A model generated the notes under the pieces. It made no database searches. It was not told the DNA's origin and was given only the letters and a program-made list of their open reading frames with translations. The position numbers were made by a program, and so were the translations under genes. A stretch of DNA of 64,000 bases from an uncultured bacterium. GTDB taxonomy: Bacteria > Planctomycetota > JAJSAM01 > JAJVHW01. Below are positions 21,387 through 40,646 of this stretch, piece after piece. The DNA lies in contig CALKVK010000012.1 of NCBI GenBank assembly GCA_937996235.1, positions 145,139-209,138 on the forward strand, given 5' to 3'. Each line of letters starts with the position of its first letter. Positions within the stretch are counted from its first letter, which is position 1.

Positions 21387-21973
21387 GCGCTCTCCCGCGG
21401 CGCGCGCAGGCGCGAGGACACCGCGCGCACCCAGGTGTCGGCGGCGAGTGCGTCGCCGAGGCCCTCCGCGACGGCGACGAACTCGTAGAGGCGATGGCGC
21501 CGGCGGCGGAACGACGCCGCGACCGTCAGAGCGCAGCACGCCAGGAGACCGTGACCGACTCCGAGCAGCACGACGTCGACGGCGAAGGATGGCGAGACCA
21601 CCGTGGACGCCCCCGAGCCGAGGAGTGCGAACGCCGTCCGCAGCACCGCCCAGAAGAGCAGCAACTCCACGAGGATGCGCGCACGCGACGCCGCCTCGTG
21701 CCGCCGCGACTCCGCCAGCGTCACGAGCGTCGGGTGGACGCACGCGACCGCGCCGACGACGAGCCACGCGAACGTGCGCGGTCCCGGAGTCGCCGCGTCG
21801 AGCGACGCGCCGCACGCGGCCGCGGCGAGTGCGACGCACGCGGTCGTCGCGAGGGGGACGGCCCAACCGCGCGACGTCCCCGGACCGGGCGACGGCTCGC
21901 GCGGGGCGAGCAGTTCCTCCCAGAGCGCGAGGGGCGCGCTGACCGGCGTCGACGGGCGCGAGGTATCGCTCAC
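21383..21973 (-). CDS. Small multipass membrane protein (~196 aa).
   Basis: Only the C-terminal ~196 aa of track ORF 21383..26242 are protein-like, with TM helices (WAVPLATTACVALAAAACG, AWLVVGAVACV, LVELLLFWAVLRTAFALLG, VVLLGVGHGLLACCALTVAA). GTG at 21973 overlaps the upstream stop (GTGA). Confidence 0.6.
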   Translation of the reverse strand: MSDTSRPSTPVSAPLALWEELLAPREPSPGPGTSRGWAVPLATTACVALAAAACGASLDAATPGPRTFAWLVVGAVACVHPTLVTLAESRRHEAASRARILVELLLFWAVLRTAFALLGSGASTVVSPSFAVDVVLLGVGHGLLACCALTVAASFRRRRHRLYEFVAVAEGLGDALAADTWVRAVSSRLRAPRESA

Positions 21974-24900: not shown

Positions 24901-26964
24901 ATCTGCAGCGGTGCTGCCCGTCACAGCATCGACCACGCGCACGAGCGCGTCGTCGCACGCAGCCGCGATTCGTCCGCCGTCCGGGCTCCACGCGATGTCC
25001 TTGGCGCCCTCCATCGACGAGAGCCAGCGGACCTCGGCGCCTGTCCGACCGTCGCAAACGTGGACGGTCGCAGTGTCGGAGAGCGCGATCTGCCCGCCGT
25101 CCGGGCGGAAGCGTACTCGCCAAACGATCCTCCAGCGACCGGTCAGGGGACTGCTGGAGGCGCCCGTGCGCGTATCGAACAGCGCGTACGTCGCCAGACG
25201 GGATCCGTCCGGGCTCCACGCCGCATCCACCACAGGGAGTTCGTGCGGGCCGACATGCACGACCGCATCCGCGCCCGCCGCTGCGAAGATGGACGCGGCG
25301 CCGCGGACGGAGAGCGCCGCGATCCTCGTTCCGTCCGGACTCCAGCGAAGTCCGCGCAGCCGGTCCGATCCGGGCGTCGAGCGCCACGTGACTGCGTCCT
25401 CGAGGTGGGTCACGTCGAAGAGCGTGGCCGACGGGGACTCGCCGACGACCACGCGTCTGCCGTCCGCGGCCCAGGCGACGGCGACTGCGCCAGCCGTCTC
25501 CGCCGCGGTGCTGCGCGAGTCCAGCTCTCCCAGTTGCTCTCCCGTCACCGTGTCCCAAACCCGGGCCCCGGCATCCGACGCCGTCGCGATCCGTGTTCCG
25601 TCCGGGCTGAACGAACACGCGCTGACGACGCCGTCGGGGCTGGAGAGCTCGACGCTCGGTGCATCGCCGCTCACGGGCCAGACGCGTGCACCCTGATCCG
25701 CATACGCGACGAACCGGCTGCCATCTGCGCTCCACGACGCTCCGTGCAGCATGCCGCGCTGGATCTCGACCTCCGCCACGGTCACCGGCGCCGGGCCCTC
25801 CACGTCCCACACGCGCACCGTGCCGCCCTCGGACGCGACGAGCAGCCGGCGCGTGCCGGCGTGCCACGCGATCGCGCGGATCGGGAGCGGATGCGCCTGC
25901 AGCGCAGCGAACTCCGGCTGTTCCTGCGACGCGCTCCAGAGCCGCACGCTGCCGTCCTCGCAGCCCGTCGCCACGCGGCCGCCCGACAGCCACGACACGG
26001 CGGTGACCGGGGACGCGCACTCGAGGACGCTCGCGGTCGTCCCGTCCGCAGCGCTCCAGACACGGGCCGTGCCGTCGTCGGAGCCGCTGACGACGTGTGT
26101 CCCCGCCGCGTTCCACTCCGCCGCACGCACACGTCCCGTGTGCTCTGCGTACCCGACCACGTTCCGACCCGACTCGACGTCCCACACGCGCGCCGTCCCG
26201 TCCTCGGACGCCGTCAGCACGCGCGTGCCGTCGGGACTCCACGCGGCCTGCGTCAGCCGCTTCGAGTGGCCGGCGAGGACCGCATCGCAGCCGCCGTCGA
26301 GGTCCCAGAGACGAGCCGTGCCGTCGTCCGAACCGGTCAACAGGTGCTGCCCCTGCGGCGAGAACGAGACGAACGTGACCGCGGACTCGTGGCCGAGGAG
26401 CACGGGCGGCGACCAGCGCGAGCGGGTCCGCTCCACGTCCACGACCTGGAAGTCCGCCGACGACGTCGCCGGCGGCGGCTCGACTCCGACCGATCGAACG
26501 ACCTGCTGCGGCGGTCCCGGCTCCGGCTCGACGACGGGGTCGGACTGCGGCGGCGTGGGCCGGAACACGTCGAGCGCCCAGAGCGCTGCGACGCCAAGGG
26601 CGAGCACGACGAGCACCGCGAGCGCGACGCGCACCGTGCGCGATCCCGGGGCGGGCGTCCGCGGCGGCGCGCGTCGCGCGGGCCCCCTGCCACGGTCCGC
26701 GGTCGGTGCGACCGCGGGTGCGCCGCCGCGCCGCAGGCGCTCGCGCAGGTCGCGCTGCTCGTGCGGCGAGCGCGCGATCAGCGGCGCGAGCCAGTCGGCG
26801 ACGTCGTCCGGCGTCTCCCCCGCGGCGCCGCGTGCGACGAGCGCGAGGAACGCCTCCTGCACGACCAGGTGCTCCTCGACGCCGACGCCCCAGCCCTCGC
26901 GCCGCAGCTCGCGCAGGAGCGCGTGCAGCGCGGCGAGGCGCTCGGAGTCGGCGGGACCGCTCAC
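21970..26964 (-). CDS. Giant WD40-repeat / multipass membrane protein (~1664 aa). N-terminal helical region, one TM, at least 12 WD40 blades, a long middle region, and a C-terminal polytopic membrane domain with an acidic tail.
   Basis: GTG at 26964 overlaps the MoxR stop (GTGA). Canonical WD40 units (GHSKRLTQAAWSPDGTRVLTASEDGTARVWDVESG and similar, repeated). C-terminal hydrophobic helices. Ends ...DDLEDDMEHGEALPA at 21970. Confidence 0.8.
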   Translation of the reverse strand: MSGPADSERLAALHALLRELRREGWGVGVEEHLVVQEAFLALVARGAAGETPDDVADWLAPLIARSPHEQRDLRERLRRGGAPAVAPTADRGRGPARRAPPRTPAPGSRTVRVALAVLVVLALGVAALWALDVFRPTPPQSDPVVEPEPGPPQQVVRSVGVEPPPATSSADFQVVDVERTRSRWSPPVLLGHESAVTFVSFSPQGQHLLTGSDDGTARLWDLDGGCDAVLAGHSKRLTQAAWSPDGTRVLTASEDGTARVWDVESGRNVVGYAEHTGRVRAAEWNAAGTHVVSGSDDGTARVWSAADGTTASVLECASPVTAVSWLSGGRVATGCEDGSVRLWSASQEQPEFAALQAHPLPIRAIAWHAGTRRLLVASEGGTVRVWDVEGPAPVTVAEVEIQRGMLHGASWSADGSRFVAYADQGARVWPVSGDAPSVELSSPDGVVSACSFSPDGTRIATASDAGARVWDTVTGEQLGELDSRSTAAETAGAVAVAWAADGRRVVVGESPSATLFDVTHLEDAVTWRSTPGSDRLRGLRWSPDGTRIAALSVRGAASIFAAAGADAVVHVGPHELPVVDAAWSPDGSRLATYALFDTRTGASSSPLTGRWRIVWRVRFRPDGGQIALSDTATVHVCDGRTGAEVRWLSSMEGAKDIAWSPDGGRIAAACDDALVRVVDAVTGSTAADLPTGGSPAHAVAWSPSGDWIAAVAEDGTLRTFDAGTGSQARAWSGPRGDLATIAFSPDSVSLLVTRTDDVARIYDVTNGAVVALRGHDGWVTGGDWSPDGTRIVTASADMTARVWDARTGALERVLLGHTGAVTDARFSPDGAFIATSSLDGTLRVWRVGAPAPSPLPFVAALAGVFLVGVVVRRGIARAYVRRGVVADDARPAFLTVPQHTRGSAVAPTLRADIARLRTHADVVTGDLDVERSVERTVAAGGLPTPVLRSRPQTPEYVALVDRRSAADAQADHVAAVLDRLESEGVHVERFEFSRDPRVVRRRGGERAERLDDLVGRLRDRRLLVFAEASTFRDPRGGAAPWLAGLDAWAQRSAVVPAARDEWSHEERAVLADGLAVAALETPARAAAPGDLAAFDAHRGAGGRAAFPPTLRAGAERWLASGSPPEHEVARVLAELRAYLGPQTYAWLCACAVYPQVHHGLTQRLGDLVFAHTDGSDAWTSADLTRLVRLPWMRAGVFPDWLRRHLTEALPEPLAREIRASFLAWLVPASASDPDALEVAVEERPWLRRLAEARRRSATADDPDADALRDTVFLGFADDGLGVRVRRSVAALLRRAPRAASADAQRRPERTWWLAPPCTFGVAWALGWGLAQLGVGDVVMPVVAVYALGCGASAARSDLRGRWWLFASELLLLHVGALLGHHGGSGAVLDAARAATWDDWRALLVVEVLVLVVVLARTAACARRHADAVAPGRLERALSALPVDRVVSALLADERPASERAAAARDAPRYAPPVWAAAHLVPLGWLALLAWRLDVLAPAASPGVLRTAVGGAFLAAAGAALLVHVRNERRGALRPVDVAPRRLVVVAVACAGTWLGLRALAAATAWMADVARWAFLVWIGLAVLGGAIGFVMSRRRRAQEAAAAAGATEAETTGSDALDVDVELDWAETAEPAVEAGSPAEAQQAEHDMEDDLEDDMEHGEALPA

Positions 26965-27956
26965 GCGCCCCCGCGCCCCGCCTTCCACGTCGCGAAGATG
27001 CGACGCGCCGCCGCGAGATCCTCCTGGCCCTTCACGAGCGTTCCGAGGTCGCCGTCGGCCGACGCGGCGAGCGGGTTCGCGACGCCTTCCCCGGCGGAGC
27101 GCCGCAGCGCGGCGAGCCAGTCGATGAGCTCGGACGTCGCCGGCGGCTTGCGCAGGGGCGGCCGCGCGTCGCGCAGCGCACGGAAGAGCGCGAGCGCGTC
27201 CTTCACGAAGGCGCTGCCGGGCGCCGCCCAGGAGCCGAGGCGGCTCACGAGGATCTCGCCGAGGCGCTCCTCGTCGGGGAACTCGATGTGGTGGTAGACG
27301 CAGCGGCGCAGGAACGCGTCCGGCAGGTTGCGCTCGGAGTTGCTCGTCACGATGACGATCGGGCGCAGCGCGGGGTCCGCGGCGATCGCCGCGATGCCGA
27401 GCTCCGCCACGCGGAACTCCATCCGCTCGATCTCGGCGAGCAGGTCGTTCGGGAAGTCGCGCGGCGCCTTGTCGACCTCGTCGATCAGCACGACGCTGCG
27501 CCGCGGACCGTCGTGTGCGAACTCCGACGGCAGCCACGTCGCGACCTCGCCCGACTCGCGCGACAGCAGCACCGCGCGGCCGAGCGCCTCGTAGCGCAGG
27601 AAGCGCAGCCCGTCGGCGAGCGAGCTCCCGCCCGCGTCGCGCGCGTGGAAGCGGCCGAGCGCGTCGTACGTGTAGAAGAGGTGCCGCGCCTCGCTCGTCG
27701 ACTTCGTGTCGAAGCGCAGCGGCGCGCCGAGCCGCAGCTCCCACGCCACGCTGTAGGCGAGCTGCGTCTTGCCGGTGCCCGGTTCGCCGGTGAGCAGCAG
27801 CGGGCGGCCGAGCAGGATCGCGAGGTCCACGGCGCGGCGCAGCCGCGCGTCCACGCGGTAGCCGGCGGGGTCCTCCGCACGCGCGCGATCGACGGACGGC
27901 AGGTCGACGGCCGGCGCCTCGCGACGCTCGCCGCTCCCGCGGTAGATCATGTCCAT
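26961..27956 (-). CDS. MoxR-like AAA+ ATPase (AAA_5 family, 331 aa).
   Basis: Walker A LLLTGEPGTGKT; Walker B VVLIDEVDKA; sensor and arginine-finger region IVIVTSNSERNLPDAFLRRC. Length is typical of MoxR. Confidence 0.9.
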   Translation of the reverse strand: MDMIYRGSGERREAPAVDLPSVDRARAEDPAGYRVDARLRRAVDLAILLGRPLLLTGEPGTGKTQLAYSVAWELRLGAPLRFDTKSTSEARHLFYTYDALGRFHARDAGGSSLADGLRFLRYEALGRAVLLSRESGEVATWLPSEFAHDGPRRSVVLIDEVDKAPRDFPNDLLAEIERMEFRVAELGIAAIAADPALRPIVIVTSNSERNLPDAFLRRCVYHHIEFPDEERLGEILVSRLGSWAAPGSAFVKDALALFRALRDARPPLRKPPATSELIDWLAALRRSAGEGVANPLAASADGDLGTLVKGQEDLAAARRIFATWKAGRGGA

Positions 27957-27969
27957 GGGCAGTCCTCCG

Positions 27970-29220
27970 TCATCCAGGGGTGCGGAGCCTCTCGCGCAGG
28001 ATGCGGCTCAGCGCCTGCGCGACCGGATCGAGCGGCGAGCGCTGCGTCGCCGGCAGGGCTCGCGCGAGGTCCTGCTCGGGCAGGCGCCGCTGCTGCAGCA
28101 GCCCGAGCACGCGCGGATGCCGCGCCCACGCGGTCACGTCGGCGAAGTCCACGTCGTCGAGCTCGGGCAGCAGCGCGACACGGCCGCCCGCCGCGTGACG
28201 CCGCGCGAGGTCCGTGAGAGACGCGCGGACGCCGTCCGCGAGCTTTCTGTCCCGTTCGTCGAAGCGCACCCACGGCACGACGACGGCCGGCGCCGTGCGG
28301 TGCACGGGCGCCCACGCGGCGAGGCGCGAGACCACGGCATCGAGGCAGCGCGGCGTCGCGTCCGCGTCCCAGCGGCAGAACGGCACCTCGCTGGTCACGA
28401 GCAGCGCGCTCGGCCACGCGCCGGCGGCGTCCGCGGCGGCGGCGTGGCCGCGCGCGCCGAGCGCCTCCGCGAGGCGCTGCTCGAAGCGGCGCACGCACGC
28501 CGCGGGGTCCGTCTCGCGCGGCCACTCCACGTCCACCGCGTGCACGACGTCGCCCGCAGGTGCCGACGCGAAGTCCGCGAGCAGCTCGTCGCGCACGCGG
28601 TCCAGGAACTGCTCGTGCGCCTGGGCGAAGCGGCCGTGCAGCAGCCAGACGAACGGCCGCGACACGTCGAGGGCGGGAACCGCGGCGAGGTCGCGCAGCG
28701 CGTCGCGTTGCGGCGTCCGGTCGCACAGGTAGGGCAGCGCCGGCGGCACGGGGTCGTGGCTCCCGATCGCGGTGTTCAGGTCCGCGAGGACGTCGCTGTG
28801 GAGCGCTTCGACCGTGGCGAACGGCTTCGACGTGTGCCGCTGGCAGATGAGAGCGCGAAACGCCCGCGCCCGCTCGGCCTCGGCACGGCCGAACCCCAGG
28901 AAGCCGGCGCGCGGCTCGGCCTCCGTGTGGAAGAACAGCATCTGCTCGACGTCCGCGGCGCACGCGGTCTCGTACTCGAGATGGGTGATGCTGCGCCCTT
29001 CGTGGCCGTCGGGCACCCAGCCGTAGCGGCGTCCCAGCAGCAGGACGAACGCGTCACAGTTCCGCACGTCGGTGGTGCACTTCGCGACGACCGTGCGCCT
29101 GTCGGATCCGTAGTCCTCCATGCCGATCGGCTGGTGGCCGAGGCGCAGGATGGCCGCGCGCACCGCCGCCCGCGCCTCGCGCAGGTCCTGGAACGTCGAG
29201 GAGACGTACACGCGAGCCAC
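27970..29220 (-). CDS. DUF4062 domain protein (416 aa) with a C-terminal extension of unknown function.
   Basis: N-terminus MARVYVSSTFQDLREARAAVRAAILRLGHQPIGMEDYG...CDAFVLLLGRRYGWVP...ITHLEYETA matches the DUF4062 signature as I recall it. Non-biased composition. Confidence 0.8.
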   Translation of the reverse strand: MARVYVSSTFQDLREARAAVRAAILRLGHQPIGMEDYGSDRRTVVAKCTTDVRNCDAFVLLLGRRYGWVPDGHEGRSITHLEYETACAADVEQMLFFHTEAEPRAGFLGFGRAEAERARAFRALICQRHTSKPFATVEALHSDVLADLNTAIGSHDPVPPALPYLCDRTPQRDALRDLAAVPALDVSRPFVWLLHGRFAQAHEQFLDRVRDELLADFASAPAGDVVHAVDVEWPRETDPAACVRRFEQRLAEALGARGHAAAADAAGAWPSALLVTSEVPFCRWDADATPRCLDAVVSRLAAWAPVHRTAPAVVVPWVRFDERDRKLADGVRASLTDLARRHAAGGRVALLPELDDVDFADVTAWARHPRVLGLLQQRRLPEQDLARALPATQRSPLDPVAQALSRILRERLRTPG

Positions 29221-29263: not shown

Positions 29264-30166
29264 TCAGAGTCCGAGTCTGTCGCGCAGCCGGGCGACGACC
29301 GCCGGCTGTGCGAGGTACTGCGCGATGCCGTGGCGCCAGGCGCCGGAGTTCGAGACGCGCACGTCCGCGACCGTCTCCTCGCCGTCGGCGAGGTAGTCGT
29401 TCGCGAGCACGGTGTCGAAGCCGCACACGGGATCGAGCCGGTCGTAGACGTTCGTCCACGCGCCGAGTGCGAGCTTCGCGCTCGGGTACGCGGTGTCGTA
29501 CTCCCACGCGTCGCCGAAGCCGTCCTGCACCTCGGACAGGCCGAGCGGGCTGCCGATCGTGAACAGCGCCGCGACGCCGGGCGTGTCGGCCACGTGCCGC
29601 AGGCAGTCGTACGCGATCACGGTGCCCATGCTGTGCGAGACGACGACGTGCGGCCCGGCCGCCGGGGGGACCGCGCGCAGAGCGGCGACGAAGCGCTGCC
29701 GGATCTCGCGCCGGACGCGGTACGTGACGCCGGGGCGCGGCCGCGACTCGGCGTCGTAGAGGTAGTGGTGGCAGTCGCGCAGGAGCCGCCGCATGAGGAT
29801 TTTCTCGAGGAAGTGCGGCAGCGGGACCGCGCGCTCGGACGCCGCGGCGAACGTCGCCCCGCCCTCGCGGATCGCCTCCTCCGCGAGCTCCTCGGTGCGG
29901 CGGCGGAGCGCGGCGACGAACGCGCGCTCGACGACGTCCGCACCGACTGCGAGCAGCTCGTCCTCCTCCGGCGCCGCGCCGCGCTGCGCCGGGTCCTCGG
30001 CCTCGGGCCGCGCGTAGAGCACGTCGGCCCAGTACACCATCGAGCTCGTCACGCCGCGCGCCGACAGGTCGAGCCCGCCCTGGCGCAGCGCCGCGAGCCA
30101 CTCCGCGAGGAGCACGTCCTGCGGCGGCTTGTTCAGGAGTCCGTGGACGAACGTCACGTGGGGCAT
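29264..30166 (-). CDS. Alpha/beta-hydrolase fold protein (lipase/esterase-like, 300 aa).
   Basis: Nucleophile elbow VVVSHSMGTVIAYD (GxSxG-type). Conserved downstream Asp/His candidates. Confidence 0.8.
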   Translation of the reverse strand: MPHVTFVHGLLNKPPQDVLLAEWLAALRQGGLDLSARGVTSSMVYWADVLYARPEAEDPAQRGAAPEEDELLAVGADVVERAFVAALRRRTEELAEEAIREGGATFAAASERAVPLPHFLEKILMRRLLRDCHHYLYDAESRPRPGVTYRVRREIRQRFVAALRAVPPAAGPHVVVSHSMGTVIAYDCLRHVADTPGVAALFTIGSPLGLSEVQDGFGDAWEYDTAYPSAKLALGAWTNVYDRLDPVCGFDTVLANDYLADGEETVADVRVSNSGAWRHGIAQYLAQPAVVARLRDRLGL

Positions 30167-30197: not shown

Positions 30198-33100
30198 TCA
30201 CGCGCGTCCCTCCACCGTGGACAGTGCGGCCGCCAGCGCGGCGAGGTCGGCGGCGTCGCGGCGTCCCGCGGCGGTCTCGGGAGCGAGTTCGCCGAGGGTC
30301 GCGAGCTGCGTCAGGACGGAGTCGCGCTCGCGTGGCGAGGCGCCGCGCGCCGCCGCGCCGAAGCACTCGCGTATCCGCGCGACGCGCGCTCCGAGTGCGT
30401 GCCCGGCGAGCGCGTGCAGGATCTCCATGTCGACGACGGCGAGCTGCCACCACACGTCACGGCGCGCCTCCGGCACCTGCGCGTGGTCCTGACGCGCCGC
30501 GTCGAGGACCGCGCGGACGACGCGCGCCGAGCGCCGGAGGGCCCACAGCAGTGCGGCCTGGTTGCACGCGGGGTAGTAGCCGGCGCCGGGCCGCCCGCGG
30601 GCGGCGAGCTCGACACCGCGCGCGTACTCGCGCTCGGCCTGGGCGAGCAGACGACGACGCTCGCGTCCGACGGCGTGCGTCGCCCGGCGCTTGAACGCGC
30701 CGCCCACGAGCGATGCGCGCTCGCACGTCGGCGGCGCGATCGCGTCGAGCGCGCGGCAGCGCTCGATCGCCGTCTCCCAGAGCTGGCGCGCGCGCGCGAG
30801 CCGTGCGGCGTCCGCGCCGCCGCCCGCGATGCGATGCGCGAGCCGGTCCTCGAAGTTCGCGAGCTGCTCGATGTCCTCGACGCGCAGCGCGGAGCCGTCG
30901 CTCGCGAGCGCCGCGCGCAGATCCGCGACGGCCTCCTCGAAGTCGCCGAGCTCGCCGCGCAGGCGCCCGCGCGCCACGAGCACGCGCGCGCTGAGCCACT
31001 CCGGACGCAGCGCGGCGTCCACCTGCGCGAGACGGCTGCGCACACGCTCCGCCGAATCCGCGCTCGGCCGGCGCAGGTTGTGGAGACCGATGCGCAGCAC
31101 CGCGAGCTCCTCCGCCACCTCGCGCTCCGACACGTAGCGCGGCACCTCGCCGCCGCGCCACGGCGCGGACGTCAGCCGGAAGTGCGGGTCGCCGTAGCAC
31201 TGGAACGCGCCCCACGTCGTGCTCCCGAGCTCGTGCGCGGAGCGGCGCGCCGCGCTCACGGCGTCGCCGAACGTCTCGCCGTCGAGCAGGCGTTCGTAGA
31301 ACGCGGTCGCGAACGCGCGCGCGGCGGCGTCGTCCACGGCCCACCCCGCGACGACCAGGCAGCGCACGCCGATGCGCATCAGCTCGACGGCGACGCTCGC
31401 GGCGAAGCGGCCGTGCTGCGGCTCGTCGGTCCGGCCCAGGTGGCAGCAGCTCAGGAACACGAGCGAGGGGCACGCGGGGAGCTGACGGATGACGTCGGCC
31501 GTCAGCCGCACGTCGTCGCCGATCACCACGCCGGTGCGCGCGGGGTCCGCGGCGTCGAAGGTGCCGTGCGCGGCGACGTGCACCACCACGTAGTCGTTCG
31601 CGTAGAGGCGCTGCAGCACCGCGGACGCGTCCTCGTCGATCGACGTCTCGACGACGTACCGGGCGCGGGTGAGCTGCTGCGAGACGCGCACGGCCTCGGC
31701 GCGCGCCCCCGGCAGGTCCGCGAACGCCGGCGCCTGCGGCGTGCCGACGACGAGCACCGCGCCGCCGCGCGCCGGCTCGACGACCTCGGCGGCGCTGCGA
31801 TCGCGGAACTGCCGCACGACGCCGAGCAGCGCCGGCGACGCGCCGTCGTCGCTGCGCCGGCGCATCAGCAGCTCCCACGGGTAGCGCGCGGTCAGCGGGT
31901 CCACGACGAGCACGAGCTCGCCGGCGTCCGCGATCTCCTCCTTGAAGGGACCGGGCACCAGCAGGTCGAACAGCGTGTGCGAGATGGAGTCGGGCGCGAT
32001 GCCGCTCGTCGTGCGCTCCGTCGCGCGCAGGAACGCATCCACGAGAGTGTGGATCGTGGGCTGCGTGATGACGGGCGCCCGCGCGCGATCGGTCACGTAG
32101 AGGTACTCGAGTCCCGTGGTGCGCGCGGCGTCGCCCGCGTCCTCCTCGCGCCGCGCGCTGACGTGCAGGCGATTCCACCAGCGGTCCGCCGCGGCCCCCG
32201 TGCGGCCGCCGGGACGGCCGTCGCGCCCGATCACGAGCGCGTCGTCCGCGTGCACGTCCGGGAGCCCGCCGCTCTGCCGCGCGCGCTCGCGCGCCGCGTC
32301 GACCAGCGCCCGTGCCGCCGCCACGGCCACGTCCTCGCTCAGCTCGACGAACTCGAGCCGCGCGATGCGCGCGCCGGCGTTCGGACCGTCCGGCTCCGCG
32401 AGCCGCGCGTTGACGCGCACGACCGCGTCGAGGATCGCCGCGATGGACTCGCGCACGTCGAGCGCCCGGCCGCCGCGCGTGCCGATCAGGAGCGACGACA
32501 GCGTGAGCTCGTGCGGCGTGCCGTCGCCGCGCGCGTCCGCGGCGCGGAGCGCCCACTCGAGGACGCCGGCGTGCACCGTGCGCCGCAGCCGCCGCGGCGT
32601 GAGGTCGCCGACGTCGCCGAGCCCCACCACGATCGCGCCCGGCGGACGGCCGGCAGCGCCGTCTTCCGCGGGCGGCGCGTCCACGACGAGCACGTCGCCG
32701 ATGCGCCCCGGGTACTGCCGCACGGCGAAGCGCCGCGCGAGCCGCCCGTCGAGACGCGAGTCGAGGTAGCGCTCGGCGCCGAACAGGCCGTCGCCCTCGT
32801 AGTGGCCCACGAGCACGGGACCGTGCGCGGCGTGCAGACTGCCGTGCACGACCTCCGCACGCAGCTGCGGCCCGACGACGGCCTCCTCGTCGCCGAGCAC
32901 GCGCGCTGCGAGCAGTCCCACGACGCCGTCCTCGGGCGGGAACGTGGACGCGGCCGCGACGATCGTCTCCGGCCGCACGGGAGGACGCGGCGGCACGCGC
33001 GCGGAGACTCCCGCCTCGAGCAGGTCGCGGATGCCCGCGACGAGATCCGCGGCGGACGGCAGCCGCTCGTGGCGCGCGGCCAGCCAGCGCGCCGTGGGGC

Positions 33101-35447
33101 GTTCCGCGAGCGTGGGATCCGCGAGGCACCAGCCGTCGCCCGCGTCGGGCTTGATCTCGGCGCGCAGCCGTGCGTCGGCGGCGCCGCGCTCGAACGACAC
33201 GACCGTGCGGTCGGCGGCGCCGAGCACGGTCAGCGCATCGAGCGCGAGCAGCGCCTCCGCGGCCTTGCGGCGACGCGCCCGTCCGGCGCGCAGGAACTCG
33301 CGCGACGGCGCCGCGTCGACCGCGCGCGCGCGCCACCACTCCGGCTGCCCGCAGGGCTCGGGCAACTGGTCGTGCACCGCGGGGCACTCCGCGAACACGC
33401 GCCGCAGAGCAGCGCGGCGTCCGCGTCCGTCGAGCAGGCAGAGCGACTCGAACAGCGCGCCCTCGCCGAGGGCGAGCGACAGCACGGCGCCCGAGCCGAC
33501 GGTCGGCGGTCCGAGCAGCACGACGCGGCGCAGGCGCGCGGGCCGCGGCACGCCGGCCAGCGCGAGCGCGACGGCGAGGGCGCCGTAGCCGTGCGCGATC
33601 ACGTGCACGTCGCACGCCGCGCACGCCGTCTCGATCCGCTCGCGCAGCACGGCGGCGACGACGTCGAGCGACTGCCGCCAGTCGTACGGCACCGGCTCGA
33701 CGAGCGCAAACCCCTCGAGCGCCCGCTCGAGCGCGATCCACTGTTCGGGGGCCGCGAGTCCCACCGCTCGGACCACGCCGACCGGCGCGGCGAGTCGCTC
33801 GAGACGGCCCGCGACGAGCGCGTCGCGGTCGGGCCAGAGCGGCCCGTCGTCGTCGGCCAGCGACGACCCGAGGAAGTCGGGCACGAGCAGGACCGCGCGC
33901 GAGGGCGCCGCCACGTCGGCGGCCTCGTCGCGCCGCCGCACGGGCACGAGCCGCTCGGGCGGCCCGCCGCGGAACGGCCGGAAGCCGCGCGGACGCAGGT
34001 CCGCGCCGTGCTGCGCGTCGAGTGCGGCATCGACGCTCTGGCGCGTGTCGCGTCCGCCGAAGTACGTGAAGTGGCTGACGGCCGGGCTCTGGTGGAACGC
34101 GGCCACGGCGCCGCCGCGCCCGCCGGTCGCGCCGTACATCGACGCCGTCTGCACGACGAGATCGTTCGCCTCGCCGAAGAACGCGTACGCGGCGAGCGCG
34201 CGCAGGCGGCGCCAGACGCCGTCGCCCTGCAGGTTGCCCGCCACGACGCGCAGCTCGTCGCCCGACGACGCGGGCGCGAGGTTCAGGTAGCGCGTGAGCG
34301 GCGAGCCGGGGAGCTGCGCCTCGATGCCCGGCACCTCCGCCGGCTCCGCGCGCCGGCGGACGATCTCGAGCAGCGTGCCGGTGATCGCGTCCACGACCTC
34401 CGGCACGGCCACGAGCGCGCCGACCAGGTCCACGAGCACGGAGAGGAATGCGTCGAGTCGCTCCGACGCGAGCGTCGTCCCGCTCGCGGGGCACGCGACG
34501 CGCACGAAGCGGCGGATCGCGATGCGCTTCTCGCGCAGCGCGCCCGCGAGCTGCACGAGCTGCTCGCGCTGCCGCGCGCGCACGTCCGCGTCTTCGCCCT
34601 GCGCGCGGAACCCCGCGAGCGCCGCGGCGCTCGGCTCGCCGCTCCGGCACAGCAGCTCGCCGACGAGTCCGCCGCGCGAGTGCGTCAGGAGGTCGAGCTG
34701 CACGCCCGGCGGCAGCCGCTCGACGGCGTGCAGCGCGTTGGCGGCGGGCGTGCGCGAGAGCGTGTGGTGCTCGAGCGCGAGCACGCGCCCGCGGTAGCGC
34801 TGCCACACGTGGCGCCAGCGCGCCGTCGCGACGGCCTGGCCCGACGACGCCTCGCGGCGGAAGAAGTCGCCGAAGCTCCCCTCGGTGCTCGACGCGGTGC
34901 CGTGGATCAGCAGCAGCACGGGCTCGTCGCCCGCGAGCGCCGCGGCGTCGTACGGCTCGAGCGAGCCGTCGCTCGCGACGGAGTAGAGGTCCTCCGCGTG
35001 CGGGAGCCGCGACTCGAGCGCAGCGACGGCCGCGGCGGTCCCGAGCTTCGCGATCTCCTCGTCGACGTCGATGCCGAGCAGCGACAGCGCGCGGATGCCG
35101 AGACCGAGGGCGTCGCGCGTCGCGCCCGGCAGCGGCAGCGCGGACGGCACGACGAAGGCCTCGGGCTCGCCCCGCTGCGACGTCGCGTCGCGCGCGCCCG
35201 CGGGCAGCCCGCCGAACAGCTCGGGCAGACGTGCGACCGACGTCCACAACACGCCGCCGCCGTCGAGTTCGAGTCGGACGAGTCCGTGCGCCTCGCCGGG
35301 CGACACCTGCACGGACTCCGCCCGCGCCCCCGCGCGGTCCGCGGCGAACTCGAAGCGACGCGCCGACGCGATCCGGTGTCGCGCACTCGGGGACGCCACG
35401 CCGTCGGCCCGCGTCTCCCGCGCAGGGATCGTCAGCGTCCGCGCCAT
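30198..35447 (-). CDS. Giant multidomain protein (1749 aa): N-terminal lipase-like alpha/beta-hydrolase domain(s), central CHAT (caspase-like) protease domain, C-terminal TPR-like repeats.
   Basis: Hydrolase region PVLLLIHGTASS...DLLTHSRGGLVGELL and a second degenerate one (VHVIAHGYGALAVALALAG). CHAT signature YVVVHVAAHGTF ... SLVFLSCCHLG. Helical repeats at the end. The overlapping plus-strand 1923-aa ORF is Arg-rich antisense. Confidence 0.85.
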   Translation of the reverse strand: MARTLTIPARETRADGVASPSARHRIASARRFEFAADRAGARAESVQVSPGEAHGLVRLELDGGGVLWTSVARLPELFGGLPAGARDATSQRGEPEAFVVPSALPLPGATRDALGLGIRALSLLGIDVDEEIAKLGTAAAVAALESRLPHAEDLYSVASDGSLEPYDAAALAGDEPVLLLIHGTASSTEGSFGDFFRREASSGQAVATARWRHVWQRYRGRVLALEHHTLSRTPAANALHAVERLPPGVQLDLLTHSRGGLVGELLCRSGEPSAAALAGFRAQGEDADVRARQREQLVQLAGALREKRIAIRRFVRVACPASGTTLASERLDAFLSVLVDLVGALVAVPEVVDAITGTLLEIVRRRAEPAEVPGIEAQLPGSPLTRYLNLAPASSGDELRVVAGNLQGDGVWRRLRALAAYAFFGEANDLVVQTASMYGATGGRGGAVAAFHQSPAVSHFTYFGGRDTRQSVDAALDAQHGADLRPRGFRPFRGGPPERLVPVRRRDEAADVAAPSRAVLLVPDFLGSSLADDDGPLWPDRDALVAGRLERLAAPVGVVRAVGLAAPEQWIALERALEGFALVEPVPYDWRQSLDVVAAVLRERIETACAACDVHVIAHGYGALAVALALAGVPRPARLRRVVLLGPPTVGSGAVLSLALGEGALFESLCLLDGRGRRAALRRVFAECPAVHDQLPEPCGQPEWWRARAVDAAPSREFLRAGRARRRKAAEALLALDALTVLGAADRTVVSFERGAADARLRAEIKPDAGDGWCLADPTLAERPTARWLAARHERLPSAADLVAGIRDLLEAGVSARVPPRPPVRPETIVAAASTFPPEDGVVGLLAARVLGDEEAVVGPQLRAEVVHGSLHAAHGPVLVGHYEGDGLFGAERYLDSRLDGRLARRFAVRQYPGRIGDVLVVDAPPAEDGAAGRPPGAIVVGLGDVGDLTPRRLRRTVHAGVLEWALRAADARGDGTPHELTLSSLLIGTRGGRALDVRESIAAILDAVVRVNARLAEPDGPNAGARIARLEFVELSEDVAVAAARALVDAARERARQSGGLPDVHADDALVIGRDGRPGGRTGAAADRWWNRLHVSARREEDAGDAARTTGLEYLYVTDRARAPVITQPTIHTLVDAFLRATERTTSGIAPDSISHTLFDLLVPGPFKEEIADAGELVLVVDPLTARYPWELLMRRRSDDGASPALLGVVRQFRDRSAAEVVEPARGGAVLVVGTPQAPAFADLPGARAEAVRVSQQLTRARYVVETSIDEDASAVLQRLYANDYVVVHVAAHGTFDAADPARTGVVIGDDVRLTADVIRQLPACPSLVFLSCCHLGRTDEPQHGRFAASVAVELMRIGVRCLVVAGWAVDDAAARAFATAFYERLLDGETFGDAVSAARRSAHELGSTTWGAFQCYGDPHFRLTSAPWRGGEVPRYVSEREVAEELAVLRIGLHNLRRPSADSAERVRSRLAQVDAALRPEWLSARVLVARGRLRGELGDFEEAVADLRAALASDGSALRVEDIEQLANFEDRLAHRIAGGGADAARLARARQLWETAIERCRALDAIAPPTCERASLVGGAFKRRATHAVGRERRRLLAQAEREYARGVELAARGRPGAGYYPACNQAALLWALRRSARVVRAVLDAARQDHAQVPEARRDVWWQLAVVDMEILHALAGHALGARVARIRECFGAAARGASPRERDSVLTQLATLGELAPETAAGRRDAADLAALAAALSTVEGRA

Positions 35448-35568
35448 CCTCCACCTCCCGGGGCCGCGCGGTCACGCGCCTCCCCGTGCGCAACGTCGTC
35501 CCCCACTCCCGGGGACGCCGCGAAGATACACGAAGCGAGGGAGCGAGCGCCGCCGTCGAATTCACGCC

Positions 35569-36471
35569 TCAGCGCGCGCGGAAGGTGTCGTTGGCCCCCG
35601 GGACGCGCGCGAGATCGAGTTCGAGTCGCACCGCCGCAGCGCCCTCGCCGACGACGGCGCCCAGCGCATATGCGCCGTAGACGAGGACCTCGCAGCGCGC
35701 CGTCGTGCGAGTCGTTGCGCTCGGTGGACCGTCGGCCCTGGACAGCGTCTCCGGGTCGTGGCAGAAGCGGATGGCACTGGGGAGCGGTCGATCGGGGTCG
35801 ACCGTCCGCACGCACGCGTGGACTCGGAACCAGTGCTGGGAGCCGACCTCGCGGCCGCGCGCGGGGTCGGGAGGCGGCAGCGGCTCCACACGCGCGCTGA
35901 GCAGGTACGGATGGACGAACGCGCGCCGGCCGAACTGCCCGCGATTGCGGTCCTCCACGCAGGTGCGTCCCGTGACCGTCAGCGCATCGAGCAGGATGAA
36001 GCACTCGAGGTGCGTGCGCAGTTCCGCCGCCGACGCGTAGCGCAGCACGCGGAAGCCCTGCACGTCGAAGTGGACGTCGTCGCCCGCGCGCACGACGTGG
36101 ACGACCGGGCGGCCGATCGCGTGCGCGAAGCCGAGCTCGTAGTAGCAGTTCGGCCGCGCGTGCGTCAGGTCGGCGATGACGAAGTCGGCGCCGCGGATCG
36201 CGTCGCGGATCTCGTCGATCATCTGTCCGCCGGACGGCAGCTCGTCCATGCGGTACGAGCGGAACCCGAACCGCCTCGCCGCGGGCGCGATCGCCTCGTG
36301 ACGCACCGCGCGCAGCTCCGGCGTGTCGGCGAACGACGAGATCACGAAGCAGTAGGGCTCGTCGGGGTCGAACGGCACGGGTGCCCCGGCGCAGGGCTCC
36401 GGCGCCGCGGCATCGGCGACGCCGCTCGCCTCCGGCTGCGACGCAGCCGGCTTCCGTCTCGCCGTCCCCAT
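35569..36471 (-). CDS. TIR-like / nucleoside 2-deoxyribosyltransferase-like Rossmannoid domain protein (~300 aa).
   Basis: ATG at 36471 (MGTARRK...). Motifs CFVISSFADT ... ADFVIADLTHARPNCYYELGFAHAIGRPVV match the D..NPNV.YELGYA..LGKPV signature of NDT/TIR-like domains. A 121-bp gap separates it from the giant CHAT gene downstream. Confidence 0.7.
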   Translation of the reverse strand: MGTARRKPAASQPEASGVADAAAPEPCAGAPVPFDPDEPYCFVISSFADTPELRAVRHEAIAPAARRFGFRSYRMDELPSGGQMIDEIRDAIRGADFVIADLTHARPNCYYELGFAHAIGRPVVHVVRAGDDVHFDVQGFRVLRYASAAELRTHLECFILLDALTVTGRTCVEDRNRGQFGRRAFVHPYLLSARVEPLPPPDPARGREVGSQHWFRVHACVRTVDPDRPLPSAIRFCHDPETLSRADGPPSATTRTTARCEVLVYGAYALGAVVGEGAAAVRLELDLARVPGANDTFRAR

Positions 36472-36641
36472 GCGCACCTCCCGACACACGGCGTGCCCTG
36501 CGCGGTCCGGGCGACTCCACTCGCCGGGCCCGCTCGTCGCAGCGAGGATGCCCGGACGCACCGCTCCGCGTCCACACTCGAACCGCGCCGCCGTGCGGCG
36601 AGGCTCCGCAGATCGCCGCCGCCCGGGCTACCCTCCCGCGC

Positions 36642-40259: not shown

Positions 40260-40646
40260 CGCGCAGCAGCGGGCGGCGACGTGAGTCGGCGTCCGCCACG
40301 ACCTGTAGGGGCGACACCGTTCGGACGCCCCCCTCGCCCGAGCCCGGCCAGGCTCGCCCCTGCGGCGGCGGACGCTGCGATGGTCCTGCGCGTCCCGACG
40401 CCTCTGGCGGAGGATCCTGGGGACCTGCGCGCCGGGCGCGCCGCACACCGTGCGGCGGCGGACGCGCGACGGACGGTGGACGGCGGGTGCGCTGCACCCC
40501 GCGAGGACGCGCGACGAGGGAACGAGCCGACGCGAGGGGCGCGCGACGTCGCCCCCACGGACACTCCGCGGCCGCTTCGCAACCCCCGCACGCTGCATCT
40601 CGAGACTGATCCGGGTCCCCAGGCCAGTTCACGACGGAGCCAGGCA

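What the first reader, a model, noticed from the sequence alone, without database searches (positions are those of the whole stretch)
35569..36471. TIR/nucleoside-deoxyribosyltransferase-like protein heads the operon
The motif ADFVIADLTHARPNCYYELGFAHAIGRPVV matches the hallmark D..NPNV.YELG.A..LGKPV of NDT/TIR-like Rossmannoid domains. These domains often act as NAD+/nucleotide-processing effectors or signal generators in defence systems. The C-terminal ~130 aa are of unknown function. It sits 121 bp upstream of the giant CHAT gene, so it may have its own promoter or be co-transcribed.
Basis: partly seen in the sequence, partly recalled or inferred. Interest (0 to 1): 0.6.

Follow-up and report, generated by a model that had tools for sequence, protein, structure and literature searches.

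The report
NDT-like enzyme fused to prokaryotic YEATS
This gene encodes an enzyme domain like those that cut bases off nucleotides or NAD+, fused to a bacterial YEATS domain, and it opens an immune-type operon that includes a giant CHAT protease; the domain combination is already catalogued in Pfam but I found no experimental work on it.

Summary
Window 35569-36471 (minus strand) is a real 300-aa gene. It has a strong ribosome-binding site, carries the quoted motif, and lies 121 bp upstream of the CHAT gene.

The N-terminal domain belongs to the nucleoside-deoxyribosyltransferase/DNPH1 ("DrHyd") superfamily rather than being a canonical TIR. The catalytic glutamate (E112) is invariant in the family. 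The "unknown" C-terminal 130 aa are a prokaryotic YEATS domain (Pfam PF20305), shown by homologue matches and by an independent fold match.

The two-domain architecture is rare, about 35-40 clusters at 50% identity. It recurs next to TIR proteins and next to effectors that carry TPR-S or SLOG sensor domains. TPR-S was linked to cADPR perception in a 2025 preprint. Here the downstream CHAT giant ends in TPR-S, and the same-strand array continues with DUF4062-iSTAND, an AAA ATPase and a WD40 giant.

It is therefore a component of a Thoeris-like, NAD+-derived-signal defence locus. Its role is unresolved:
- signal-activated effector, with pYEATS as the sensor (about 0.45; my preferred reading);
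- signal generator for the CHAT-TPR-S protease (about 0.3).

It is a new member of a computationally predicted kind, and I found no experimental characterisation of it. Interest is moderate.

The parts
35569..36471 (-). Target gene: 300-aa DrHyd(NDT/DNPH1-like)-pYEATS protein (stop codon 35569-35571)
   Evidence: ORF. GC3 0.90. GGGAGG Shine-Dalgarno 5 nt before the ATG. Full-length homologues at 40-45% identity.
35977..36369 (-). N-terminal DrHyd/NDT-superfamily Rossmannoid domain (aa ~35-165)
   Evidence: Pfam Nuc_deoxyrib_tr 24.3 bits, sub-threshold. PADLOC 'Effector TIR' 6.4e-11. AF2 pLDDT 80-95 in this region. Foldseek top hits DNPH1/Rcl, TMt 0.63-0.78.
36100..36189 (-). Hallmark motif ADFVIADLTHARPNCYYELGFAHAIGRPVV; the predicted catalytic Glu E112 is the codon at 36136-36138
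   Evidence: Invariant PNCYYE.G. At least 90% conserved in 95 distant relatives. E112 aligns with the Glu of the YELG motif of Rcl/DNPH1 and with the Glu of MilB.
35572..35964 (-). C-terminal prokaryotic YEATS (pYEATS) beta-sandwich (aa ~170-300), preceded by the invariant linker motif N.G.FGRRAF
   Evidence: Homologues hit PF20305 above the 26.9-bit cut-off: 36.5, 36.4 and 29.0 bits. Nearly all of the top 50 PDB Foldseek hits for the isolated-domain AF2 model are YEATS domains. The query alone gives no Pfam hit for this domain.
35448..35568 (-). 121-bp spacer between the target and the CHAT gene
   Evidence: No terminator or promoter consensus. No unusual RNA structure, z = 0.08. A GGAGG-type Shine-Dalgarno precedes the CHAT ATG.
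30198..35447 (-). 1749-aa protein with two DUF7379 matches, CHAT protease (aa 1156-1420) and a C-terminal TPR-S sensor (aa 1502-1634, nt 30546-30944)
   Evidence: Pfam CHAT 6e-34, DUF7379 3.3e-27, TPR-S 31.7 bits against a 27.6 cut-off.
29264..30166 (-). 300-aa protein, weakly alpha/beta-hydrolase-like, 31 bp after the CHAT gene
   Evidence: Abhydrolase_6 E = 0.0032, below cut-off. GC3 0.97.
27970..29220 (-). DUF4062 + inactive-STAND (iSTAND) protein; candidate second-messenger generator of the locus
   Evidence: Pfam DUF4062 2.1e-25, iSTAND 7.1e-7. Kaur et al. 2020 describe the N-terminal TIR/DRHyd domains of iSTAND proteins as messenger-generating.
26961..27956 (-). AAA+ ATPase (331 aa)
   Evidence: Pfam AAA 2.6e-9, AAA_5 8.5e-8. 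Weak NCBIfam MadB/IteA-like matches.
21970..26958 (-). WD40 beta-propeller protein of ~1660 aa (start approximate)
   Evidence: Frame set by GC3 periodicity. WD40 1.3e-81.

Best explanation
The gene encodes a cytoplasmic two-domain protein. The N-terminal domain is a DrHyd/NDT-superfamily N-glycosidase domain. It has the DNPH1/Rcl-like fold, is a sister of TIR and ADP-ribosyl cyclases, and retains its catalytic glutamate E112. The C-terminal domain is a prokaryotic YEATS beta-sandwich, joined by an invariant arginine-rich linker (FGRRAF).

The protein is a component of a Thoeris-like immune locus that signals with NAD+-derived nucleotides.

Most likely mechanism (inferred, not shown). The protein is a signal-activated effector.
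1. A neighbouring TIR-class protein senses the invader and makes an ADP-ribose-derived messenger. In this window that protein would be DUF4062-iSTAND, working with its AAA ATPase and WD40 partner. In other loci it would be a ThsB-like TIR.
2. The pYEATS domain binds that messenger or a related trigger.
3. Binding switches on the DrHyd domain, which cleaves the N-glycosidic bond of NAD+ or of a nucleotide and so depletes an essential metabolite.
4. In parallel, the CHAT protease is activated through its own TPR-S sensor.

Shown: domain identities, residue conservation, gene order, recurrent neighbourhood. Inferred: substrate, ligand of pYEATS, direction of signalling.
For: Domains.
- Foldseek hits to DNPH1/Rcl.
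- Alignment of E112 to the Rcl and MilB glutamate.
- Invariant PNCYYE.G motif.
- pYEATS by Pfam on homologues and by fold.

Context. Nine of 12 two-domain loci of at least 4 kb carry a TIR-domain protein. Pfam scans show this in L001, L002, L004, L005, L013, L090, L095, L097 and L098. Among loci that have only the DrHyd-like domain, 3 of 32 do (rough control).

Partner TIRs. They best-match ThsB, the Thoeris generator, in PADLOC. The target itself best-matches a PADLOC 'Effector TIR' model at 6.4e-11.

Fusion partners. In the wider family (28,750 representatives) this DrHyd-like domain is fused to receiver domains (10 of 95), effector-associated domains EAD7/8, TIR, CHAT and trypsin. That is the pattern of a regulated output domain.

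L095. A TIR-WD40 protein directly follows the homologue on the same strand. This fits 'TIR senses and signals, DrHyd-pYEATS responds'.

Precedent. The type VIII Thoeris effector ThsI is a CMP-hydrolase/DNPH1-type domain plus the Aravind TPR, and it is toxic on cADPR addition (bioRxiv 10.64898/2025.12.03.692087).

pYEATS residues. The domain has six invariant or near-invariant arginines, which suits a phosphorylated ligand.
Against: - No canonical TIR ORF is detectable in the 64-kb window. The nearest TIR-class (TIR/DrHyd/SLOG) enzyme domain to the TPR-S effector is therefore the target itself, which favours the generator reading here.
- DUF4062 has no demonstrated activity.
- Five two-domain loci show no partner at all: L014, L091, L093, L096 and the P0005 contig.
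- The ligand of pYEATS is unknown. Eukaryotic YEATS domains read acyl-lysine, not nucleotides.
- The 2020 paper that defined pYEATS and TPR-S could not be read.
- The query's own matches to PF05014 and PF20305 are below threshold or absent.
Confidence: 0.45

Rival explanations
1. Signal generator (ThsB analogue). pYEATS senses the invader. The DrHyd domain then converts NAD+ into a cyclic or linear ADPR-derived messenger, as the ADP-ribosyl-cyclase clade of the same superfamily does. The TPR-S (or SLOG) domain of the adjacent effector reads that messenger; here the effector is the CHAT giant 121 bp downstream.
For: - The gene sits immediately upstream of, and on the same strand as, a TPR-S effector.
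- No canonical TIR is found in the window.
- In L004 the homologue's start overlaps the stop of an abhydrolase-TPR-S gene. In L013 it is next to CHAT-TPR-S, and in L005 next to SLOG-patatin.
- Every partner with a recognised messenger-sensor domain has an effector-plus-sensor layout, so the target could be the one enzyme without a known messenger sensor.
- Iyer et al. 2022 state that the DrHyd superfamily includes the ADP-ribosyl cyclases that make cADPR.
Against: - Every locus with a TPR-S or SLOG effector also has a separate TIR or DUF4062 protein that could be the generator.
- Partner TIRs look ThsB-like.
- Several minimal loci contain only a TIR protein plus DrHyd-pYEATS: L090/L012 and L002.
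- The family's fusion partners are typical of output domains.
- The L004 copy is broken into four frames while its TPR-S effectors are intact, although assembly error is possible.
Confidence: 0.3
2. Self-contained single-gene abortive-infection protein. pYEATS directly detects a phage component or a phage-induced modification and activates the DrHyd NADase/nucleotidase. The TIR-rich surroundings would only reflect defence-island clustering.
For: - Partner-less loci: L014, L093, L091, the P0005 contig and L096, the last next to an integrase.
- Partner genes differ widely between loci.
Against: - Start/stop overlap or short same-strand spacing with partners in L004, L095, L097 and the window.
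- The partners are specifically TIR, TPR-S or SLOG genes rather than a random sample of defence genes.
Confidence: 0.12
3. Messenger-clearing or threshold-setting enzyme. The DrHyd domain hydrolyses the N-glycosidic bond of the ADPR-derived messenger, as a CD38-like cADPR hydrolase does, to reset or buffer the system. pYEATS would bind the messenger as substrate.
For: - It co-occurs with TIR signalling modules regardless of which sensor type is used, TPR-S or SLOG.
- A TIR-fold cADPR hydrolase has been reported (PMC13455253, title and abstract only).
Against: There is no direct evidence. Known Thoeris operons do not need such an enzyme. The relatives fused to EAD or REC domains look like effectors.
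Confidence: 0.08
4. Housekeeping nucleotide-salvage enzyme (an NDT or DNPH1 orthologue) that lies next to the CHAT gene by chance.
For: Best structural matches are DNPH1/Rcl and best PDB sequence matches are Rcl and MilB.
Against: - E-values to those enzymes are only 0.04-0.06.
- The protein is fused to pYEATS.
- Distribution is rare and patchy, about 35-40 clusters.
- Neighbours are immune-type genes across phyla.
- There is no NCBIfam match.
Confidence: 0.03

Closest known systems
pYEATS / TPR-S NAD+-derived-signal conflict systems (Pfam PF20305 and PF20308; Burroughs & Aravind 2020, J Bacteriol 202:e00365-20)
   Same: The same two Pfam families are present. Homologues of the target carry PF20305. 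The adjacent CHAT protein carries PF20308 above its cut-off. The neighbourhood is rich in TIR, DrHyd and SLOG domains.
   Different: The paper is not held, so whether this exact DrHyd-pYEATS + CHAT-TPR-S + iSTAND arrangement was described there is unverified. My recollection that it lists pYEATS among signal-sensor domains comes from memory of the abstract only.
Type VIII Thoeris effector ThsI (CMP-hydrolase/DNPH1-type domain + TPR, activated by canonical cADPR; bioRxiv 10.64898/2025.12.03.692087)
   Same: An NDT/DrHyd-superfamily enzymatic domain is used in TIR signalling. The TPR referred to is the one predicted by Burroughs & Aravind. The target's weak PDB sequence matches include MilB CMP hydrolase and DNPH1.
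   Different: In the target the enzyme domain is fused to pYEATS, not to the TPR. The TPR-S sits on the neighbouring CHAT protease. No ThsB TIR is present in the window. No ThsI sequence was available for direct comparison.
Type IV Thoeris (TIR + caspase-like protease activated by N7-cADPR; Rousset et al., bioRxiv 10.1101/2024.10.24.620036)
   Same: A caspase-family (CHAT) protease effector with a C-terminal putative ligand-binding domain is encoded next to a TIR-class enzyme gene.
   Different: The protease here is a 1749-aa multidomain protein whose C-terminal domain is TPR-S. The upstream enzyme is DrHyd-like rather than TIR. PADLOC does not call Thoeris here.
DNPH1/Rcl, nucleoside 2-deoxyribosyltransferases and MilB CMP N-glycosidase
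   Same: The Rossmannoid fold matches (TMt up to 0.78). The Glu of the ...YELG... motif aligns with E112.
   Different: Structural-alignment identity is only 20-27%. Pfam PF05014 is below threshold. The protein has an extra pYEATS domain and sits in an immune-type genomic context. The substrate-specifying residues were not compared.
Eukaryotic YEATS acyl-lysine readers (AF9, ENL, Taf14, Yaf9)
   Same: The best fold matches of the isolated C-terminal domain are YEATS domains (prob 0.93-0.99 for most, TM ~0.44). One homologue gives a faint hit to eukaryotic PF03366.
   Different: Identity is 11-17% and E-values are about 1e-2. The aromatic acyl-lysine cage was not verified. The conserved residues are mostly arginines. 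A PDB sequence search with the domain profile finds nothing.
iSTAND ternary systems (vWA-MoxR-iSTAND; Kaur et al. 2020, PMC7159879)
   Same: The same-strand array contains a DUF4062-iSTAND protein followed by an AAA ATPase. CHAT and TIR-class domains are typical effectors of these systems.
   Different: No vWA domain was detected; a WD40 giant follows the ATPase instead. The ATPase was not typed as MoxR.
PADLOC 'Effector TIR' model PDLC00733
   Same: This is the strongest profile match of the target (6.4e-11 over aa 85-152).
   Different: The match covers only 68 positions at the C-terminal end of a 388-position model. The rest of that architecture is absent.

Membership tests
NDT/DrHyd superfamily (Pfam PF05014 Nuc_deoxyrib_tr) | Score at or above the Pfam gathering cut-off (28.8 bits) | tested here: not met
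   The query scores 24.3 bits, E = 3.7e-5. Close homologues score 17-28 bits. Among 95 more distant relatives of the same domain, 69 match at E <= 1e-3, and the best scores 40.3 bits.
NDT/DrHyd superfamily (Pfam PF05014 Nuc_deoxyrib_tr) | Three-layer Rossmannoid fold superposable on NDT/DNPH1 | tested here: met
   AF2 model with pLDDT 79. Foldseek PDB ranks 1-41 are all DNPH1/Rcl, TMt 0.63-0.78, prob 1.00.
NDT/DrHyd superfamily (Pfam PF05014 Nuc_deoxyrib_tr) | Catalytic nucleophile Glu in the motif after the fourth strand (YELG in Rcl/DNPH1) | tested here: met
   E112 aligns with the Glu of GYELG in Rcl and of HVEIG in MilB. It is invariant in 11 of 11 homologues and at least 90% conserved in 95 relatives. 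That this Glu is the nucleophile is established knowledge about DNPH1, not something tested here.
NDT/DrHyd superfamily (Pfam PF05014 Nuc_deoxyrib_tr) | N-glycosidase or transferase activity on a nucleotide or NAD+ | not testable with these tools
   Requires a biochemical assay.
Canonical TIR domain (PF13676 / PF01582) | Pfam cut-off reached; TIR structures are the best fold matches | tested here: not met
   TIR_2 scores 18.1 bits against a cut-off of 28. Only one TIR-containing chain appears in the top 50 Foldseek hits, at rank 42 with rmsd 26 A. A custom TIR HMM does not hit the ORF.
pYEATS (Pfam PF20305) | Profile match at or above the cut-off (26.9 bits) | tested here: inconclusive
   The query alone gives no hit at E <= 1. 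Homologues that align with the query end to end score 36.5, 36.4 and 29.0 bits. Membership therefore rests on transitive homology.
pYEATS (Pfam PF20305) | YEATS-type immunoglobulin-like beta-sandwich fold | tested here: met
   Isolated-domain model with pLDDT 78.5. Nearly all of the top 50 PDB hits are YEATS domains (Taf14, AF9, ENL, Yaf9, YEATS2, GAS41); E is about 1e-2 and TM about 0.44.
Thoeris-type TIR signalling system | A TIR-domain (ThsB) signal generator encoded in the operon | tested here: not met
   No canonical TIR ORF is found in the 64-kb window with a custom HMM. Only the DrHyd-like and DUF4062 domains are present. Homologous loci do carry ThsB-like TIRs.
Thoeris-type TIR signalling system | An effector carrying a dedicated messenger-sensor domain | tested here: met
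   The CHAT protein ends in TPR-S, 31.7 bits against a 27.6 cut-off. A 2025 preprint proposes that this TPR perceives cADPR in type VIII Thoeris.
Thoeris-type TIR signalling system | Phage-dependent production of an ADPR-derived messenger, and phage protection | not testable with these tools
   Requires infection assays and LC-MS.
iSTAND ternary system (Kaur et al. 2020) | Triad of an iSTAND protein, a MoxR AAA ATPase and a vWA protein | tested here: inconclusive
   iSTAND scores 30.2 bits against a cut-off of 24, and an AAA ATPase is adjacent. No vWA domain was found; the next gene is a WD40 giant.

The most novel reading that the evidence does not exclude
A non-TIR enzyme is the messenger generator of a Thoeris-like pathway. 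The DrHyd (NDT/ADP-ribosyl-cyclase-superfamily) domain would be gated by a bacterial YEATS domain that senses the invader. It would make an NAD+-derived nucleotide that switches on a 1749-aa CHAT protease through its TPR-S domain. This would also give the first function for a prokaryotic YEATS domain and a possible origin for the eukaryotic chromatin reader.
Probability: 0.27. Interest if true: 0.75.

Novelty: new member of a known kind. Interest (0 to 1): 0.45.

Why it matters
I found no published experimental work on either pYEATS or this DrHyd subfamily; full-text searches for pYEATS returned nothing.

The locus is a compact place to test three questions:
- whether a bacterial YEATS domain binds an ADP-ribose-derived messenger or an invader cue;
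- whether NDT-like domains can substitute for TIR as generators or as NAD+/nucleotide-depleting effectors;
- whether TPR-S can control a caspase-family protease.

The last would extend the TIR-caspase (type IV) and TPR (type VIII) Thoeris findings.

It also joins two families of predicted systems in one operon: the iSTAND ternary systems and the TPR-S effectors. For annotation, the protein should be named 'DrHyd/NDT-like-pYEATS domain protein' rather than TIR protein or hypothetical protein.

Tried and rejected
1. Terminator and promoter consensus scan of 35000-37000: nothing found. RNA fold of the 121-bp spacer: no better than shuffles. So there is no evidence for or against co-transcription beyond the spacing.
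2. Word-index search with the pYEATS-domain profile, meant to survey other pYEATS architectures: it returned only two fragments. The test 'is pYEATS fused to many effector types?' could not be done.
3. PDB sequence search with the pYEATS profile: no hits.
5. NCBIfam: no model matches the target, its homologues, the CHAT giant, the 300-aa protein or DUF4062-iSTAND; only the AAA ATPase gives weak matches.
6. Profile comparison of the family with the DUF4062-iSTAND protein in the window: no similarity.
7. Viral contig scan: no relatives, so nothing suggests a phage-borne copy.
8. A custom TPR-S HMM found only its own training sequences among the 98 loci. It even missed the Pfam-annotated TPR-S protein in L095, so it is too narrow to use as a census.
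9. Exact look-up of the window protein's contig: not on record. The source organism remains unknown: 74.5% GC, and the closest full-length relative with a named source is in a Gemmatimonadaceae MAG.
10. The paper that defines pYEATS and TPR-S (PMC7685563) is not held. The supplements of the 2025 Thoeris survey do not mention YEATS, PF05014 or CHAT.
11. Housekeeping NDT/DNPH1 reading: rejected on context and rarity.
12. Canonical TIR reading: rejected on profile and fold ranking.
Full report
**1. The observation**

The finding's coordinates correspond to a minus-strand ORF, 35569-36471, of 300 aa from an ATG. An in-frame GTG 90 nt upstream would give 330 aa.

The window is 74.5% GC. The ORF has the codon-position GC pattern of real genes here: GC3 is 0.90 and GC2 is the lowest. 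The ATG is preceded by GGGAGG at a 5-nt spacing (sequence), and the variable N-termini of homologues line up with it.

The quoted peptide ADFVIADLTHARPNCYYELGFAHAIGRPVV is at aa 95-124. The CHAT gene's ATG is at 35447, so the gap is exactly 121 bp. That gap contains no consensus terminator or promoter and no unusually stable RNA structure (z = 0.08).

**2. The N-terminal domain**

Pfam gives only sub-threshold matches: Nuc_deoxyrib_tr 24.3 bits (cut-off 28.8) and TIR_2 18.1 bits (cut-off 28). PADLOC gives 6.4e-11 to an 'Effector TIR' model. Sequence search of the PDB gives weak hits (E about 0.04-0.06) to Rcl/DNPH1 and the CMP N-glycosidase MilB. In those alignments the query's YYELG lines up with GYELG of Rcl and HVEIG of MilB.

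An AlphaFold2 model built on 11 homologues has pLDDT 78.9 and pTM 0.77. Its 41 best Foldseek PDB hits are all DNPH1/Rcl (TMt 0.63-0.78). A single TIR-containing chain appears at rank 42, with a meaningless rmsd of 26 A.

A profile of the family finds 28,750 cluster representatives at E <= 1e-3 and 12,237 at E <= 1e-10 among 1.84 billion proteins. Of 95 of the more distant ones, 69 match PF05014, the best at 40.3 bits.

The motif P-N-x-Y-Y-E-x-G is invariant in the close family and at least 90% conserved in the distant set.

Conclusion: this is an NDT/DNPH1-type domain ('DrHyd' in the Aravind nomenclature). That superfamily is the sister of TIR and SLOG and also contains the ADP-ribosyl cyclases (PMC9503650). 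The predicted catalytic nucleophile E112 is intact. It is not a canonical TIR.

**3. The C-terminal domain**

The query alone has no Pfam hit here. The 10 full-length homologues (37-46% identity, aligned end to end) match PF20305 'prokaryotic YEATS', three of them above the cut-off at 36.5, 36.4 and 29.0 bits.

I modelled aa 170-300 on its own (pLDDT 78.5). Nearly all of the 50 best PDB matches are YEATS domains: Taf14, AF9, ENL, Yaf9, YEATS2 and GAS41. E-values are modest (about 1e-2) and TM is about 0.44, but probabilities are 0.9-0.99 for most.

Two independent lines therefore identify the 'unknown' C-terminus as pYEATS. Its conserved positions are dominated by arginines and by the invariant linker N.G.FGRRAF. 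I did not verify an aromatic acyl-lysine cage.

**4. How common the architecture is**

In the exhaustive search, about 35-40 representatives (50% identity clusters) cover both domains. All the others share only the DrHyd-like domain.

In those others the domain is usually C-terminal, behind an unannotated segment of 100-150 aa. Some are fused to other domains, counted out of 95:
- receiver domains: 10;
- TIR: 7;
- CHAT: 2;
- effector-associated domain EAD8: 2, and EAD7: 1;
- trypsin, AAA_22 and HTH in smaller numbers.

**5. The window's operon**

On the minus strand, with gaps of 121, 31, 43 and 13 bp (the fifth junction is abutting or overlapping, its start being approximate), lie:
- the target;
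- a 1749-aa protein with two DUF7379 matches, CHAT (6e-34) and a C-terminal TPR-S (31.7 bits, cut-off 27.6);
- a 300-aa weakly alpha/beta-hydrolase-like protein;
- DUF4062 + iSTAND;
- an AAA ATPase;
- a WD40 protein of about 1660 aa.

Upstream and divergent is a Ser/Thr kinase-AAA_16-TPR protein.

Kaur et al. 2020 describe iSTAND systems in which TIR or DRHyd domains at the iSTAND N-terminus are read as messenger generators, and caspase-like or TIR domains as effectors (PMC7159879). No vWA domain was found here.

A custom TIR HMM finds no canonical TIR in the whole 64-kb window.

**6. Neighbourhoods of homologues**

| Locus | Neighbours of the DrHyd-pYEATS gene |
|---|---|
| L013 | 263-aa protein, CHAT-TPR-S, TIR |
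| L004 (Gemmatimonadaceae MAG) | abhydrolase-TPR-S whose stop overlaps the homologue's start; divergent TIR-TPR-S; two further TIRs. The homologue itself is split over four frames |
| L005 (Pirellula MAG) | divergent SLOG-patatin, TIR-SLOG, another TIR |
| L001 | 260-aa protein (58% identical to the L013 one) and a TIR |
| L002 | TIR, 514 aa |
| L090, L012, L015 | L090 and L012: convergent 447-aa TIR; all three: a divergent RidA-like gene |
| L095 (Pseudomarimonas MAG) | TIR-WD40 directly downstream on the same strand; patatin and a TPR-S protein nearby |
| L097 | TIR-SIR2, nSTAND1, then the homologue; DUF4062 convergent |
| L098 | CHAT, a subtilase, ThsB_TIR, TIR, TIR-SLOG |

Five loci show no obvious partner: L014, L091, L093, L096 and the P0005 contig.

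By Pfam, 9 of 12 two-domain loci of at least 4 kb carry a TIR protein. With my own TIR HMM the count is 8 of 12, against 3 of 32 loci that have only the DrHyd-like domain (Fisher p = 3e-4). This control is rough, because the HMM was trained on six of the positive loci.

**7. What it most likely does**

TPR-S was predicted by Burroughs & Aravind (2020) to take part in TIR-mediated signalling. A 2025 preprint shows that type VIII Thoeris effectors are toxic on cADPR addition. These effectors combine a CMP-hydrolase/DNPH1-type domain with that TPR, and the authors propose that the TPR perceives cADPR. SLOG is the gcADPR sensor of type I Thoeris, and type IV Thoeris pairs a TIR with a caspase-like protease. 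The target therefore belongs to the world of NAD+-derived signalling. Two roles are possible.

*Effector reading (preferred, about 0.45).* pYEATS senses the messenger and DrHyd is the output. Support:
- The constant partner across loci is a TIR protein, not a sensor-effector.
- Those TIRs best-match ThsB models, whereas the target best-matches an 'Effector' model.
- Fusions of this DrHyd-like domain with REC, EAD, CHAT and trypsin are typical of output domains.
- ThsI is a precedent for an NDT-type Thoeris effector.
- L095 pairs the homologue with a TIR-WD40 protein, and WD40 is a macromolecule sensor rather than a messenger sensor.

*Generator reading (about 0.3).* In this window there is no TIR, and the gene directly precedes the TPR-S effector. 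The superfamily includes cyclases.

*Minor rivals.* A self-contained sensor-effector (0.12), a messenger-clearing hydrolase (0.08) and a housekeeping NDT (0.03).

None of these can be separated further with the tools available. The pYEATS architecture census failed, and the defining paper is not held.

**8. Comparison, novelty and score**

The domain families and the general system type are already catalogued: Pfam PF20305 and PF20308, Kaur et al. 2020, and Burroughs & Aravind 2020. So this is a new member of a known, computationally predicted kind.

I found no experimental work on pYEATS or on this DrHyd subfamily. The combination in one operon of iSTAND-type genes with a CHAT-TPR-S giant and DrHyd-pYEATS is unusual among the loci I examined.

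Interest is 0.45. A specialist would not be surprised by the architecture, but it is a good test bed for three open questions: the ligand of bacterial YEATS, NDT-like domains in NAD+ signalling, and TPR-S control of a caspase-family protease.

Noticed in passing
window 13261-16209 (-): A second CHAT protease gene (982 aa, TPR_12 + CHAT, 1.1e-52) lies about 14 kb from the CHAT giant, so the region holds more than one caspase-family protein.
   Followed up: no
L001 2658-3440 (-) and L013 6651-7442 (-): A ~260-aa protein with no Pfam or PADLOC match is 58% identical between two unrelated metagenome contigs. In both it lies directly beside, and divergent from, the DrHyd-pYEATS gene, which may make it a third conserved component. 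No homologue was found in the window.
   Followed up: partly
L004 9962-10993 (+): In the Gemmatimonadaceae MAG the DrHyd-pYEATS homologue is split over four reading frames, while the adjacent TPR-S effector genes are intact. It is either a pseudogene or an indel-rich assembly.
   Followed up: partly
window 36645-40259 (+): The gene divergent from the target encodes a Ser/Thr kinase + AAA_16 (STAND-like) + TPR protein of ~1200 aa, an architecture typical of signalling or conflict proteins. Whether it belongs to the same system was not examined.
   Followed up: no
window 30198-35447 (-), aa 880-961 of the CHAT giant: A sub-threshold match to the N-terminal domain of M17 aminopeptidases (22.4 bits against a 23.4 cut-off) lies between the DUF7379 lipase-like domains and CHAT. 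The region is otherwise unannotated.
   Followed up: no
P0051-P0166 (relatives): About 50 of 161 relatives carry an unannotated 100-150-aa N-terminal segment ahead of the DrHyd-like domain. Ten others have a CheY-like receiver there. The common segment is not recognised by Pfam.
   Followed up: partly
L090 3-1004 (-), L012, L015: A protein with two matches to the RidA/L-PSP endoribonuclease family (1e-50) is conserved divergent to the DrHyd-pYEATS gene in three contigs.
   Followed up: no
window 40281-45482 (+): A large NAD-specific glutamate dehydrogenase (Bac_GDH_CD, 2.4e-261) lies just beyond the kinase gene. It is a housekeeping gene that probably marks the edge of the immune-type cluster.
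   Followed up: no
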